Part shown: piece after piece, positions 37,474 through 38,491 of the stretch | Layout: every line of letters begins with the position of its first letter | Numbering within the stretch: position 1 is the first letter of the stretch | Source of the DNA: Escherichia phage vB_EcoM_R5505 | Sequence record: MK373786.1 | Direction: 5' to 3' (one strand) | DNA length: 64,000 bases | Position numbers and translations under genes: made by a program | Notes under the pieces: generated by a model | Databases searched by the model: none | What the model saw: only the letters and a program-made list of their open reading frames with translations | What the model was told of the DNA's origin: nothing

Positions 37474-37549
37474 TGGTCGAGGCAGTAGGGATCGAACCTA
37501 CGACCTAGGACTTAGAAGGTCCTTGCTCTTCCTTCTGAGCTATGCCCCG
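37474..37549 (-). tRNA. tRNA-Arg (anticodon TCT), CCA encoded
   Basis: Hand-folded cloverleaf: acceptor CGGGGCA/TGCCTCG, T-arm GTAGG-TTCGATC-CCTAC, anticodon loop CTTCTAA. Confidence 0.85.
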
Positions 37550-37553
37550 TAAT

Positions 37554-37629
37554 TGGGGTGACCGATGGGAGTCGAACCCATGACTACGAGAATCACAATC
37601 TCGAGTTCTACCAACTGAACTACGGCCAC
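37554..37629 (-). tRNA. tRNA-His (anticodon GTG), CCA encoded
   Basis: Hand-folded: acceptor GTGGCCG/CGGTCAC, D-arm GTTC-AGTTGGTA-GAAC, anticodon loop TTGTGAT, T-arm ATGGG-TTCGACT-CCCAT, discriminator C. Confidence 0.75.
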
Positions 37630-37745
37630 ATTAATACCTACTCCAACAATCAAGATGTCTTCACACGAAATTAAGAGAAGAGTGATCAGTTCAACCCCTA
37701 TAATCGCGTCAAGTAGATATTAATGTGACAGTTGTCACAAATTTG

Positions 37746-37817
37746 GCGGACGTGATAGGATTCGAACCTATAACCAATCGCTTAACAGGCGATCGCTCTG
37801 CCATTGAGCTACACATC
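37746..37817 (-). tRNA. tRNA-Asn (anticodon GTT), CCA not encoded
   Basis: Hand-folded: acceptor GGATGTG/CACGTCC, anticodon stem-loop ATCGC-CTGTTAA-GCGAT, T-arm ATAGG-TTCGAAT-CCTAT. Confidence 0.75.
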
Positions 37818-37821
37818 CAAA

Positions 37822-37908
37822 TTGGTGGGGAGTGGTGGAGTCGAACCACCCGAGTCGCAATGACAATGAATTTACAGTCCACACCGCTACCTCTACGGGA
37901 TAACTCCC
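37822..37908 (-). tRNA. tRNA-Tyr (anticodon GTA), long variable arm, CCA encoded
   Basis: Hand-folded: acceptor GGGGAGT/ACTCCCC, anticodon loop CTGTAAA, long variable arm, T-arm GGTGG-TTCGACT-CCACC. Confidence 0.7.
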
Positions 37909-37917
37909 CAAATTAAT

Positions 37918-37992
37918 TTGGTGGCCCTGGGTGGAATTGAACCACCATCTGGCGATTATGAGTCGCTTGCTTGAACCTTCCAGCTACAGGGC
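37918..37992 (-). tRNA. tRNA with anticodon CAT (Ile2/Met type), CCA encoded
   Basis: Hand-folded: acceptor GGCCCTG/CAGGGCC, anticodon loop CTCATAA, T-arm GGTGG-TTCAATT-CCACC; in T4 the CAU tRNA reads AUA as Ile. Confidence 0.8.
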
Positions 37993-37993
37993 C

Positions 37994-38070
37994 TTGGTGC
38001 TGATTGACGGAATCGAACCGCCGACCTTCTCATTACAAGTGAGTTGCTCTACCTACTGAGCTAAATCAGC
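37994..38070 (-). tRNA. tRNA-Thr (anticodon TGT), CCA encoded
   Basis: Hand-folded: acceptor GCTGATT/AATCAGC, D-arm GCTC-AGTAGGTA-GAGC, anticodon loop CTTGTAA. Confidence 0.85.
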
Positions 38071-38075
38071 AAAAC

Positions 38076-38165
38076 TGGCGGAGGCGATAGGATTTGAACC
38101 TATGAGTCGCCGGAGCGACTGCCGGTTTTCAAGACCGGTGCATTAAACCACTCTGCCACGCCTCC
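38076..38165 (-). tRNA. tRNA-Ser (anticodon TGA), long variable arm, CCA encoded
   Basis: Hand-folded: acceptor GGAGGCG/CGCCTCC, anticodon stem-loop ACCGG-TCTTGAA-AACCGG, long variable arm, T-arm ATAGG-TTCAAAT-CCTAT. Confidence 0.9.
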
Positions 38166-38167
38166 AG

Positions 38168-38241
38168 TCTCCATACAAGGATTTGAACCTTGGACCTCCT
38201 GATCCCAAATCAGGCGCTCTACCAAACTGAGCTACACGGAG
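38168..38241 (-). tRNA. tRNA-Pro (anticodon TGG), CCA not encoded
   Basis: Hand-folded: acceptor CTCCGTG/TATGGAG, D-arm GCTC-AGTTTGGTA-GAGC, anticodon loop TTTGGGA. Confidence 0.85.
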
Positions 38242-38251
38242 TAAATTAAAT

Positions 38252-38325
38252 TGGAGCGGATAATGAGAATCGAACTCACATCATCAGATTGGAAGTCTGA
38301 GGTAATACCATTATACGATATCCGC
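38252..38325 (-). tRNA. tRNA-Gly (anticodon TCC), CCA encoded
   Basis: Hand-folded: acceptor GCGGATA/TATCCGC, anticodon stem-loop TCAGA-CTTCCAA-TCTGA. Confidence 0.9.
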
Positions 38326-38330
38326 AAATT

Positions 38331-38417
38331 TGGTGCGAGAAGTGGGACTCGAACCCACAAGGAAATCATTCCGCAGCATTTTAAGTGCTGTGCCTTTACC
38401 AATTTGACCATTCTCGC
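38331..38417 (-). tRNA. tRNA-Leu (anticodon TAA), long variable arm, CCA encoded
   Basis: Hand-folded: acceptor GCGAGAA/TTCTCGC, anticodon stem-loop CAGCA-CTTAAAA-TGCTG, T-arm GTGGG-TTCGAGT-CCCAC. Confidence 0.85.
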
Positions 38418-38418
38418 G

Positions 38419-38491
38419 CTGGGAATAAAGGACTCGAACCTTTGCATCTAGCAGTCAAAGTGCTATGCCTTACCAACTTGGCTAATTCCCA
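38419..38491 (-). tRNA. tRNA-Gln (anticodon TTG), CCA not encoded
   Basis: Hand-folded: acceptor TGGGAAT/ATTCCCA, D-arm GCC-AAGTTGGTA-AGGC, anticodon stem-loop TAGCA-CTTTGAC-TGCTA. Confidence 0.85.

What the first reader, a model, noticed from the sequence alone, without database searches (positions are those of the whole stretch)
37474..38491. Eleven-gene tRNA array with Tyr, Asn and His genes beyond the canonical T4 set
Hand-folding gives eleven tightly packed minus-strand tRNAs in the order Gln, Leu, Gly, Pro, Ser, Thr, Ile(CAT), Tyr, Asn, His, Arg. The first seven and Arg match the set and order I recall for T4. Tyr(GTA), Asn(GTT) and His(GTG) sit between Ile and Arg, where I recall T4 having spacer and ORF sequence. 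Three tRNAs (Asn, Pro, Gln) lack an encoded CCA. The extra tRNAs may reflect codon-usage compensation for the AT-rich phage genome.
Basis: partly seen in the sequence, partly recalled or inferred. Interest (0 to 1): 0.5.

Follow-up and report, generated by a model that had tools for sequence, protein, structure and literature searches.

The report
Known T-even phage eleven-tRNA array
This is a real but already annotated cluster of eleven tRNA genes in a T4-like coliphage (the T2-type version that T4 itself has partly lost to a selfish endonuclease gene); the only fresh point is an unannotated, conserved folded RNA sitting directly in front of the histidine tRNA gene.

Summary
ARAGORN finds eleven minus-strand tRNA genes at exactly 37474-38491, in the stated order. 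Rfam's tRNA model confirms ten; Tyr falls below threshold but is 87/87 identical to the experimentally studied T6 tRNA-Tyr. The window is Escherichia phage AdolfPortmann (MZ501046, Tequatrovirus), where all eleven genes are annotated, and about 200 other records carry the same array. Tyr and Asn between Ile and Arg were published for T2L/RB1/RB3 in 2008. T4 holds the homing endonuclease gene segB in that slot, and the Asn gene (identical here to T2's) is SegB's preferred cleavage site. Corrections: Asn does encode CCA (only Gln and Pro lack it), and the CAT and Arg genes are T2-type alleles, about 62% identical to T4's. Codon compensation fits the eight T4-type tRNAs and, as residue demand, Tyr and Asn, but not His. 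Published work points to anti-defence roles: Tyr against Septu/retron-Eco7, Asn against PARIS. New here: the 114-nt Asn-His "spacer" contains a 95-nt RNA structure supported by covariation. It abuts tRNA-His in every Straboviridae genus examined (as a bare hairpin in two), resembles T5 stable RNA III in layout, and accompanies a tRNA-His with no encoded G-1. Verdict: already known, low interest.

The parts
38418..38491 (-). tRNA-Gln(TTG); no encoded CCA; abuts Leu with no spacer
   Evidence: ARAGORN; RF00005 66 bits; 3' end read; identical to T4's over T4's 73 annotated nt
38331..38417 (-). tRNA-Leu(TAA), class II, CCA encoded
   Evidence: (59.3 bits); 100% identical to T4
38252..38325 (-). 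tRNA-Gly(TCC), CCA encoded
   Evidence: (65.8 bits); 100% identical to T4
38167..38241 (-). tRNA-Pro(TGG); no encoded CCA
   Evidence: (66.8 bits)
38076..38165 (-). tRNA-Ser(TGA), class II; CCA encoded here but not in T4
   Evidence: (62.6 bits); PMC2330249 reports the same CCAG difference between the T2L and T4 Ser genes
37995..38070 (-). tRNA-Thr(TGT), CCA encoded
   Evidence: (72.9 bits); 73/76 identical to T4
37919..37993 (-). tRNA with CAT anticodon, best read as Ile2 (AUA after lysidine modification). T2-type allele, about 62% identical to T4 tRNA-Ile. Homology with T4 breaks about 20 nt into this gene (window 37974).
   Evidence: (59.9 bits); best E. coli match is tRNA-Ile, 81.6% over full length
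37823..37909 (-). tRNA-Tyr(GTA), class II, CCA encoded; phage-type tRNA-Tyr
   Evidence: ARAGORN; below the RF00005 threshold; 87/87 identical to T6 tRNA-Tyr; cloverleaf with 8 compensatory pairs; family present in 1256 phage records
37744..37818 (-). tRNA-Asn(GTT), CCA encoded. By identity to T2 it carries the preferred SegB recognition site. Anticodon arm reads U36-A-A-G-C-G.
   Evidence: (74.1 bits); 75/75 identical to T2 tRNA-Asn; SegB site reported in PMC2330249
37725..37743 (-). Short linker after Asn holding a small hairpin (UGUGACA-AC-UGUCACA). The UGUCAC just 5' of P1 recurs in several genera.
37630..37724 (-). Unannotated conserved structured RNA element ('pre-His element', 95 nt). 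P1 is a 14-bp closing stem (37724-37711 with 37643-37630) whose 3' strand ends at position -1 of tRNA-His. P2 pairs 37709-37705 with 37667-37663. P3 is a hairpin on P2. P4 is a hairpin pairing 37659-37656 with 37648-37645.
   Evidence: MFE z-scores -4.4 (114 nt) and -3.6 (95 nt), 0/200 shuffles; RNAalifold and pair counts show 99% of cells paired vs 36-50% in slid controls, 6-8 compensatory pairs, 0/500 shuffles; model R1 finds diverged copies abutting His in Moonvirus, Kagamiyamavirus and phage CkP1; no Rfam hit at E<=10
37554..37629 (-). tRNA-His(GTG): G1-C72, C73, CCA encoded, but T at -1, so no encoded G-1
   Evidence: (65.1 bits); -1 is T in all 14 Straboviridae loci examined and in T5
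37474..37549 (-). tRNA-Arg(TCT), T2-type allele, about 62% identical to T4/T6 tRNA-Arg
   Evidence: (66.1 bits)
37105..37455 (-). 116-aa ORF (bas44_0247), part of the T2-type cassette, function unknown
   Evidence: phrog_3355 at E 1.7e-52, unknown function; no Pfam match; homologue annotated in T2
36989..37105 (-). Homologue of T4 rnaD (small stable RNA); not annotated in MZ501046
   Evidence: 105/118 identical to T4 rnaD; falls in an annotation gap
36844..36982 (-). Homologue of T4 rnaC (small stable RNA); not annotated in MZ501046
   Evidence: 137/139 identical to T4 rnaC
36770..36793 (-). Intrinsic terminator-like hairpin plus T-run that closes the tRNA/stable-RNA unit
   Evidence: the sequence is shared with T4

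Best explanation
The locus is the tRNA region of a T-even phage (Escherichia phage AdolfPortmann, Tequatrovirus) in its segB-free, T2-like and most complete form.

It is probably one early/middle transcription unit running from upstream of Gln (38491) to the terminator at about 36770 (inferred). It encodes eleven tRNAs, a structured 95-nt RNA in front of tRNA-His, a small ORF, and the rnaD and rnaC stable RNAs. Host RNase P, 3' exonucleases and CCA-adding enzyme (needed for Gln and Pro) would release the mature RNAs. That step is inferred from classical T4 work.

The eight T4-type tRNAs read A-ending codons that the phage uses 1.6-5.6 times more than the host. This fits supply matching.

The three extras do not extend decoding. 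They add or replace supply of single-isoacceptor tRNAs that host defence nucleases attack.
- Tyr: shown for the identical T6 gene against Septu, and for the related T5 gene against retron-Eco7.
- Asn: inferred. PARIS AriB cuts host tRNA-Asn next to a UAAU motif that this phage's Asn lacks.
- His: role open.

T4 looks 'canonical' only for historical reasons. In T4 and T6 the homing endonuclease gene segB occupies this slot together with different Ile and Arg alleles. The Asn gene here is identical to the T2 gene that holds SegB's preferred cleavage site. This genome should therefore be a recipient allele that loses the Ile2-to-Arg cassette in a mixed infection with a segB-positive phage.

For: - Identity and annotation: 100% match to MZ501046 with all 11 tRNAs annotated.
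- tRNA calls.
- Relation to T4: 98% identity from upstream of the array to 37974. Identity resumes at rnaD/rnaC (94.5%) and e.8.
- Allele series: T2 has CAT-Tyr-Asn-Arg-ORF. T6 has CAT-Tyr-segB-Arg. T4 has Ile-segB-Arg. TadeuszReichstein has an endonuclease gene in the Pro slot.
- Tyr is 87/87 identical to T6's and Asn is 75/75 identical to T2's.
- The SegB site in T2L tRNA-Asn, and exclusion of the ~1250-bp Met/Tyr/Asn/Arg region, are reported in PMC2330249.
- Septu cleaves tRNA-Tyr. T6 tRNA-Tyr overexpression or amplification rescues infection. T4, which lacks Tyr, cannot escape, and T2 is resistant (PMC13096335).
- AriB targets Lys, Thr(UGU) and Asn(GUU), and T5 tRNA-Asn contributes to escape (PMC12409363).
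- The window's Asn reads U36-A-A-G-C-G against the host's U-A-A-U-C-C (compared).
- Codon and residue counts. Terminator.
- Pre-His element: covariation and presence across genera. T5 RNA III sits in the same position.
Against: - Nothing has been measured in this phage. Expression and function are carried over from T6, T2 and T5 by sequence identity or analogy.
- T6 tRNA-Tyr is itself cleaved by Septu and works by dosage, so a single-copy gene gives only partial protection.
- Resistance of this tRNA-Asn to AriB is inferred from one motif.
- In the same paper, the Bas34 genome's own tRNA-Asn did not suffice for escape.
- tRNA-His lacks G-1, and E. coli HisRS needs G-1 for efficient charging: more than 100-fold loss without it. 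Its use in translation is therefore uncertain.
- The covariance model of the pre-His element does not detect T5 RNA III. The T5 parallel rests on architecture and position only.
- The Tyr gene fails the generic Rfam tRNA model.
Confidence: 0.85

Rival explanations
1. Pure supply matching. The three extra tRNAs exist only to raise Tyr, Asn and His decoding capacity for an AT-rich proteome, with no link to host defence.
For: Tyr and Asn residues are about 1.6 times more frequent in the window's ORFs than in E. coli, and TAT and AAT are 2.2-2.7 times more frequent (E. coli values approximate, from memory). The eight T4-type tRNAs fit codon compensation well.
Against: His residues are rarer than in the host (about 0.7x), yet His is conserved in eight genera. 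G34 tRNAs add no new decoding. T4, with the same base composition, grows well without all three. The identical T6 tRNA-Tyr has a demonstrated anti-Septu effect.
Confidence: 0.25
2. One or more of the extras (Tyr in particular) is a degenerate pseudo-tRNA.
For: Tyr does not reach the Rfam tRNA gathering score. Some GenBank records label it tRNA-OTHER. T6 tRNA-Tyr was described as relatively unstable.
Against: It is identical to the T6 tRNA that was detected by northern blot and rescues infection. The cloverleaf is kept through 8 compensatory pairs. The family is conserved in 1256 phage records across unrelated families. Asn and His score 74 and 65 bits.
Confidence: 0.03
3. The His module (structured leader plus a tRNA-His without G-1) is not mainly a translation component. 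It could be a decoy or sponge for a host nuclease or for HisRS, or a vehicle for producing the small RNA.
For: There is no encoded G-1 in any of the 14 Straboviridae loci examined or in T5, although C73 is kept. G-1 loss lowers charging by E. coli HisRS more than 100-fold. His demand is low. The leader is conserved with covariation. AriB yields probable minor cleavage products of tRNA-His.
Against: Otherwise it is a perfect canonical tRNA (65 bits) with an encoded CCA. The T5 record notes that T5 tRNA-His becomes an effective amber suppressor when its anticodon is changed, so that related molecule can be charged and used by ribosomes. A U at -1, if retained, could partly substitute for G-1 (own knowledge, uncertain).
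Confidence: 0.15
4. The Asn-His spacer is a DNA-level signal (an internal promoter or a protein-binding palindrome), not an RNA structure.
For: It contains a TTGACG hexamer conserved in most genera and a long inverted repeat.
Against: The scan finds no promoter on the tRNA strand inside the spacer; its only hit there is a weak 9/12 match on the opposite strand. TTGACG is replaced by TTCAACG in Jiaodavirus and in EnC07. Pairing is kept through G.U wobbles and compensatory changes that work only on the tRNA-sense strand: 110-115 bits on the sense strand against about 20 bits on the reverse. Diverged copies keep the fold but not the sequence.
Confidence: 0.07

Closest known systems
T2 / T2L / RB1 / RB3 tRNA gene region (Brok-Volchanskaya et al. 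2008, PMC2330249; T2 record MH751506)
   Same: Same genomic position. Same segB-free cassette CAT-Tyr-Asn-...-Arg-ORF. The Asn gene is identical (75/75), the CAT gene is identical, and Tyr is 86/87.
   Different: T2 lacks tRNA-His and the pre-His element. T2 has the trna.1 ORF in place of Thr, whereas the window keeps Thr.
T4 tRNA region (NC_000866): Gln-Leu-Gly-Pro-Ser-Thr-Ile-segB-Arg-rnaD-rnaC
   Same: Same flanks (trna.2-4 and ipI upstream, e.8 downstream). Gln to Thr are 96-100% identical. rnaD, rnaC and the terminator are conserved.
   Different: T4 has segB where the window has Tyr, Asn, the pre-His element and His. The Ile and Arg alleles are only about 62% identical. T4 lacks encoded CCA on Ser and Ile as well. 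T4 lacks the 116-aa ORF between Arg and rnaD.
T6 tRNA-rich region with tRNA-Tyr and segB (Chihara et al. 2026, PMC13096335)
   Same: Identical tRNA-Tyr (87/87). This is the molecule shown to counter Septu when its dosage rises.
   Different: In T6, segB follows Tyr, with T4-type CAT and Arg alleles and no Pro, Ser, Asn or His. The window has no segB homologue, so SegB-driven amplification is not available in cis.
T5 tRNA cluster, specifically stable RNA III followed by tRNA-His (NC_005859 annotation)
   Same: A structured RNA of about 100 nt lies directly 5' of tRNA-His. A closing stem of 14-15 bp ends at position -1. Position -1 is U, and the tRNA has G1-C72 and C73. The T5 tRNA-Tyr is 84% identical to the window's.
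   Different: No detectable sequence or covariance-model similarity between RNA III and the pre-His element. Homology is therefore not shown.
Phage tRNAs as counter-defence against tRNA-cleaving immunity (PMC10264068, PMC11555353, PMC12409363)
   Same: The extras include the two tRNA species, Tyr and Asn, for which host-defence cleavage and phage tRNA rescue have been demonstrated.
   Different: Those demonstrations used T5, SP15 and T6 tRNAs. Nothing has been tested for this phage's Asn or His.

Membership tests
tRNA (Rfam RF00005 / ARAGORN cloverleaf) | Covariance-model score at or above the 29-bit gathering threshold | tested here: met
   Met by ten genes at 59.3-74.1 bits. The exception, Tyr, has its own row below.
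tRNA (Rfam RF00005 / ARAGORN cloverleaf) | Tyr gene: covariance-model score at or above the gathering threshold | tested here: not met
   No RF00005 hit. Best clan hit is tRNA-Sec at 30.9 bits against a 47-bit cutoff. ARAGORN does call it, and the cloverleaf is supported by 8 compensatory pairs.
tRNA (functional gene) | Expressed, processed mature RNA | not testable with these tools
   Only by transfer: the identical T6 tRNA-Tyr was seen on northern blots and in tRF-seq. There are no data for Asn or His from this phage.
T-even phage tRNA region | Synteny: between the trna.2-4/ipI side and the e.8/e.7 side, followed by rnaD, rnaC and a terminator | tested here: met
   98% identity with T4 upstream of the array, 94.5% at rnaD/rnaC and 95.7% at e.8. 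Terminator.
SegB homing-site (recipient) allele | tRNA-Asn gene carrying the 27-bp preferred SegB recognition sequence, with no segB in the locus | tested here: met
   The Asn gene is 75/75 identical to T2's. [quoted passage not shown] No SegB homologue in the window (tblastn best E = 2). Caveat: the T2L sequence used in 2008 was not compared directly, only the T2 record MH751506.
SegB homing-site (recipient) allele | Actual cleavage by SegB and marker exclusion in crosses | not testable with these tools
   Needs the enzyme assay or T4 x AdolfPortmann co-infection.
Anti-defence phage tRNA (Tyr vs Septu / retron-Eco7) | Sequence identity with a tRNA shown to rescue infection | tested here: met
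   87/87 identical to T6 tRNA-Tyr. Rescue data are in PMC13096335.
Anti-defence phage tRNA (Asn vs PARIS AriB) | Substitutions at or around the AriB cleavage site (U36-A-A-U-C|C41 in the host tRNA) | tested here: inconclusive
   The window's Asn has G39 and G41 and so lacks UAAU (one search compared). No cleavage or rescue data exist for this tRNA.
Bacterial-type tRNA-His identity set | Genome-encoded G-1 pairing with C73 | tested here: not met
   Position -1 is T and C73 is present. The same holds in all 14 Straboviridae loci examined and in T5. The requirement is described in PMC5499578.
Any described RNA family (Rfam 15), for the pre-His element | Match to a curated covariance model | tested here: not met
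   No hit within 37630-37743 at E <= 10.
T5 RNA III-like stable RNA, for the pre-His element | Position directly 5' of tRNA-His, with a closing helix that ends at -1 | tested here: met
T5 RNA III-like stable RNA, for the pre-His element | Detectable sequence or structure homology to T5 RNA III | tested here: not met
   Model R1 gives no hit on T5 RNA III at E <= 10.
T5 RNA III-like stable RNA, for the pre-His element | Accumulates as a discrete stable RNA in infected cells | not testable with these tools
   Needs northern blots or small-RNA sequencing.

The most novel reading that the evidence does not exclude
The 95-nt pre-His element is an undescribed, functionally required RNA motif coupled to tRNA-His across Straboviridae and, by analogy, T5. 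Its closing helix, which always ends at U(-1), would govern a non-canonical 5' maturation or identity of a phage tRNA-His that carries C73 but no encoded G-1. For example, it could cause U-1 to be retained, delay or gate RNase P cleavage, or produce a trans-acting small RNA. On this reading the His module is a new kind of phage tRNA-linked device and not a simple spacer.
Probability: 0.2. Interest if true: 0.6.

Novelty: already known. Interest (0 to 1): 0.22.

Why it matters
The array needs no new explanation. It is a textbook-adjacent locus that is annotated in GenBank and has a published comparative and functional literature.

Its value is as context. It shows that T4's eight-tRNA set is a derived state shaped by a homing endonuclease, not the baseline. 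It also places this phage among those expected to resist tRNA-Tyr-cleaving defences better than T4 and to lose the cassette to segB-positive relatives.

The one item that could repay work is the pre-His element. It is a covariation-supported RNA structure, unannotated in all 355 records that carry it. It is tied to a tRNA-His that breaks the near-universal bacterial G-1 rule. If it controls how that tRNA is matured or recognised, it would bear on tRNA-His identity and on the unexplained small stable RNAs of T4 and T5.

Tried and rejected
- Degenerate-motif scan of IMG/VR. It returned 70 loci, but only five were true copies by the covariance model. It added no new diversity.
- Model R1 on T4, T2 and T6 gave no hits, consistent with their lack of His.
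- Model R1 on T5 gave no hit on RNA III, so homology is not claimed.
- The idea that the spacer is a decayed tRNA-Gln arose because Klebsiella phage records list tRNA-Gln under the match. I rejected it: the overlap is 2 nt of the neighbouring gene, and no tRNA-like hit falls in the spacer.
- Internal promoter in the spacer: no promoter match on the tRNA strand.
- A small ORF running from the spacer into tRNA-His was considered from reading the sequence. I rejected it because the variation is compensatory in RNA stems, not codon-like.
- An alternative acceptor-stem register that would make the first G of tRNA-His a G-1 was checked by hand on the sequence. I rejected it: it breaks U8 and the CCA end.
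- Pfam on the two cassette ORFs gave nothing, and PHROGs gave only families of unknown function.
- Literature searches for a phage tRNA-His lacking G-1 and for T5 RNA III found nothing relevant in the held library. This does not prove the point is unpublished, because the 1980s T5 papers are not in the library.
- The T4 locus was not exported to the script sandbox, so I pasted its sequence in.
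Full report
**Observation**

ARAGORN finds eleven tRNA genes in the 64-kb window. All are on the minus strand at 37474-38491, in the order Gln, Leu, Gly, Pro, Ser, Thr, CAT, Tyr, Asn, His, Arg. Rfam's general tRNA model confirms ten of them at 59-74 bits, E 1e-10 to 1e-14.

The eleventh, Tyr (37823-37909), does not reach that model's threshold. Its best clan hit is tRNA-Sec at 30.9 bits, below the 47-bit cutoff.
- The gene is 87/87 identical to the T6 tRNA-Tyr. That RNA was detected by northern blot and tRNA-fragment sequencing and rescues infection (PMC13096335).
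- A five-sequence alignment with diverged phage homologues and E. coli tyrT keeps a cloverleaf of 24 pairs, 8 of them with compensatory changes.
- The family occurs in 1256 phage records.

Tyr is therefore a genuine but atypical tRNA. The low score probably reflects its D-arm register and its two-G.U anticodon stem (inference).

- Reading the 3' ends shows that nine genes encode CCA. Only Gln and Pro lack it.
- Nine of the ten spacers are 0-10 nt, but the Asn-to-His spacer is 114 nt.
- Against T4, Gln to Thr are 96-100% identical, while the CAT and Arg genes are only about 62% identical. They are the alleles found in T2. T4 and T6 share the other allele pair.
- The CAT tRNA's best E. coli match is tRNA-Ile at 81.6% over its full length. 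This supports the Ile2 (AUA) reading in the GenBank record over ARAGORN's 'Met'.

**What the window is**

The region is 100% identical to Escherichia phage AdolfPortmann (MZ501046, locus tags bas44_, Tequatrovirus). All eleven tRNAs are annotated in that record. In all, 949 phage records match the region, and 240 of them cover at least 80% of it. About 197 carry the His-containing form at 95% identity or more.

In T4 the order is Gln-Leu-Gly-Pro-Ser-Thr-Ile-segB-Arg-rnaD-rnaC.
- Homology between T4 and the window (98%) runs from upstream of the array to window position 37974, about 20 nt into the CAT gene.
- It resumes at rnaD/rnaC (window 37105-36761, 94.5%) and again at e.8.
- The variable cassette is therefore 37106-37974. 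It holds Ile2-Tyr-Asn-[leader]-His-Arg-ORF here and Ile-segB-Arg in T4.

Other phages show further variants.
- T2 has CAT-Tyr-Asn-Arg-ORF, with an ORF in place of Thr.
- T6 has Gln-Leu-Gly-Thr-CAT-Tyr-segB-Arg.
- TadeuszReichstein keeps Tyr-Asn-His but has an endonuclease gene in the Pro slot.

The window carries the union of these tRNA sets.

**Published context**

Brok-Volchanskaya et al. 2008 (PMC2330249) described the T2L, RB1 and RB3 regions with tRNA-Met(CAU), Tyr and Asn. [quoted passage not shown] They also showed that T4 x T2L crosses almost completely exclude the ~1250-bp T2L segment encoding Met, Tyr, Asn, Arg and two ORFs.

The window's Asn gene is 75/75 identical to T2's. The window contains no SegB homologue (tblastn best E = 2). 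This genome is therefore predicted to be a SegB recipient allele.

Chihara et al. 2026 (PMC13096335) reported four relevant results.
- Septu EcB88 cleaves the variable arm of tRNA-Tyr.
- T6 escapes by SegB-driven amplification of its tRNA-Tyr gene.
- T4, which lacks Tyr, cannot escape.
- T2 is resistant.

PARIS AriB cleaves host tRNA-Lys(UUU), Thr(UGU) and, secondarily, Asn(GUU) between positions 40 and 41 next to a UAAU motif. T5's Lys, Thr and Asn variants together neutralise it (PMC12409363). The window's tRNA-Asn reads U36-A-A-G39-C40-G41 where the host has U-A-A-U-C-C. It lacks the motif. That is suggestive only.

**Testing the codon-usage idea**

I counted codons in 69 ORFs of at least 100 aa (16,175 codons, GC 35%). 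The E. coli reference values are approximate and from memory.
- The NNA codons read by the eight T4-type tRNAs are 1.6-5.6 times more frequent than in E. coli. AGA is 5.6x, ATA 2.9x, ACA 2.9x and GGA 2.7x. This fits compensation.
- The three extras have G34 and read the same codon pairs as the single host isoacceptor. They can only add supply.
- Residue demand is up for Tyr (47.0 per 1000, about 1.65x) and Asn (63.2 per 1000, about 1.6x), but down for His (16.3 per 1000, about 0.7x).

For Tyr, the experimental evidence favours a counter-defence role.

**The rest of the unit**

- Downstream of Arg lies a 116-aa ORF (37105-37455; phrog_3355, unknown function, no Pfam match).
- Then come homologues of the T4 stable RNAs: rnaD (37105-36989, 105/118 identical) and rnaC (36982-36844, 137/139 identical). 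Neither is annotated in MZ501046.
- A strong terminator-like hairpin at 36793-36770 closes the unit.

**The unexpected part: the Asn-His spacer**

The 114-nt spacer folds much better than shuffled controls (z = -4.4, 0 of 200 shuffles as stable). BLAST finds it in 355 phage records with nothing annotated on it, apart from a few records with a hypothetical ORF or marginal overlap from a neighbouring tRNA gene. The records include Klebsiella, Enterobacter, Salmonella and Proteus phages at 75-89% identity.

In every locus where a tRNA-His gene was called, it lies directly 5' of tRNA-His, whatever gene precedes it. That gene is Asn here and Gln elsewhere.

An eight-sequence alignment from four genera gives a consensus fold.
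- P1 is a 14-bp closing stem whose 3' strand ends at position -1 of tRNA-His.
- P2-P3 form a long hairpin.
- P4 is a short hairpin.

The pair counts support the fold. 99.1% of cells are paired, against 36-50% when partners are slid by 1-3 columns. Six pairs carry compensatory changes, against 0-1 in the slid controls. No shuffle out of 500 reaches the observed values. Conserved G.U pairs, and scores of 110-115 bits on the sense strand against about 20 bits on the reverse, place the structure on the tRNA-sense RNA.

A covariance model built from those eight sequences then found diverged copies that BLAST had missed.
- Moonvirus NM4.3: 33.9 bits.
- Kagamiyamavirus EcS1: 28.7 bits.
- Karamvirus CkP1: 32.3 bits.

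Each ends exactly at -1 of tRNA-His. Each has a different interior sequence but the same architecture. With two of these added, 96.6% of cells pair and eight pairs are compensatory.

In Kanagawavirus PEi20 and the Aeromonas Angelvirus AsFcp_1, only a simple hairpin corresponding to P1 precedes tRNA-His. It too ends at U(-1). T4, T2 and T6 lack His and lack the element. Rfam 15 has no match at E <= 10.

**tRNA-His has no encoded G-1**

The gene aligns base for base with E. coli tRNA-His from G+1 (G1-C72, C73, CCA), but position -1 is T. The same holds in all 14 Straboviridae loci examined. Every T4-like match to the host gene starts at query position 2, after the G-1.

In bacteria G-1 is normally encoded and is retained through RNase P cleavage at -2/-1. 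Its absence lowers charging by E. coli HisRS more than 100-fold (PMC5499578).

T5 gives a striking parallel.
- Its tRNA-His also has T at -1.
- It is directly abutted on its 5' side by the annotated 106-nt 'RNA III, stable RNA with unknown functions'.
- With its flanking bases, RNA III folds into a 15-bp closing stem ending at -1 that encloses two or three hairpins (z = -3.1).

My model does not detect RNA III. The parallel is therefore positional and architectural, and homology is not demonstrated. I found no paper in the held library describing either feature for phage tRNA-His. That library lacks the older T5 literature.

**Most likely mechanism**

*Shown.* Gene content and order; the allele relationships; identity to the studied T6 and T2 genes; the conserved RNA fold.

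*Inferred.*
- The locus is one transcription unit processed by host RNase P, exonucleases and the CCA-adding enzyme.
- The eight T4-type tRNAs match phage codon demand.
- Tyr, and plausibly Asn, buffer against defence nucleases that deplete the single host isoacceptor.
- The cassette is the target allele of SegB homing.
[quoted passage not shown] Its function, and how a tRNA-His without G-1 is used, remain unknown.

**Verdict**

The finding as stated is correct in substance, with two factual slips: the CCA of Asn, and the claim that all spacing is tight. It describes an already known and annotated feature. The codon-usage interpretation is only partly right. The one element that appears undescribed is the pre-His RNA structure together with the missing G-1. 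It deserves a note but does not raise the score of the array itself.

Noticed in passing
window 37630-37724 (minus strand): Unannotated 95-nt RNA structure supported by covariation, directly 5' of tRNA-His. It has a 14-bp closing stem ending at -1 plus two inner arms. It is present in at least six Tevenvirinae genera and reduced to a bare hairpin in Kanagawavirus and an Aeromonas Angelvirus. No Rfam match.
   Followed up: yes
window 37629-37630 (5' end of tRNA-His); also L005-L011, L082-L090: tRNA-His has T, not G, at -1 while keeping C73. The same holds in all 14 Straboviridae loci examined and in T5. This breaks the bacterial G-1:C73 identity rule for HisRS. The consequence for charging is unknown.
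   Followed up: partly
L090 (T5, NC_005859) 3207-3393, minus strand: T5 'RNA III' (a stable RNA of unknown function) abuts tRNA-His and folds into a 15-bp closing stem ending at -1. The layout matches the pre-His element, but the covariance model finds no similarity.
   Followed up: partly
window 36844-37105 (minus strand): Homologues of the T4 small stable RNAs rnaD (105/118) and rnaC (137/139), followed by the shared terminator at 36770-36793. None is annotated in the deposited record MZ501046.
   Followed up: yes
window 37919-37993 and 37474-37549: The CAT (Ile2) and Arg(TCT) genes occur as two allele pairs among T-even phages: the T2/window type and the T4/T6 type. They are about 62% identical. 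In T4 and T6 the second type accompanies segB.
   Followed up: yes
window 37823-37909: The phage-type tRNA-Tyr is shared at 84-97% identity with unrelated phage families: rV5-like Vequintavirus 96.6%, Cronobacter CR3 91%, FelixO1 85.5%, T5 84%. This suggests exchange of the gene between lineages or strong common selection on it. Some records label it tRNA-OTHER.
   Followed up: partly
window 37744-37818 (anticodon arm): tRNA-Asn reads U36-A-A-G-C-G and lacks the UAAU motif next to the PARIS AriB cleavage site of host tRNA-Asn. The Thr(UGU) gene (shared with T4) has G40 where the host has C40.
   Followed up: partly
L085 (TadeuszReichstein, MZ501106) 1173-1823: A homing-endonuclease gene occupies the tRNA-Pro slot between Gly and Ser, while Tyr, Asn and His are kept. 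Different tRNA slots of the array are invaded in different phages.
   Followed up: partly
L007 (Salmonella phage STP4-a) 607-802: The pre-His element is intact (106 bits), but only GTGG survives of the start of tRNA-His, followed by unrelated sequence, and ARAGORN calls a tRNA-Asn about 30 nt downstream. This looks like a rearranged or decayed His module that keeps the leader.
   Followed up: no
window 37105-37455 and 36246-36719 (minus strand): Two small ORFs (phrog_3355 and phrog_2280, no Pfam match) lie within or beside the variable cassette. T4 lacks both at these positions (the first is also present in T2). Function unknown.
   Followed up: partly
L006 (Enterobacter phage Entb_43) 137-224: The tRNA-Tyr annotated by tRNAscan-SE is not called by ARAGORN. 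This is another sign that the phage-type tRNA-Tyr sits at the edge of generic tRNA detectors.
   Followed up: no
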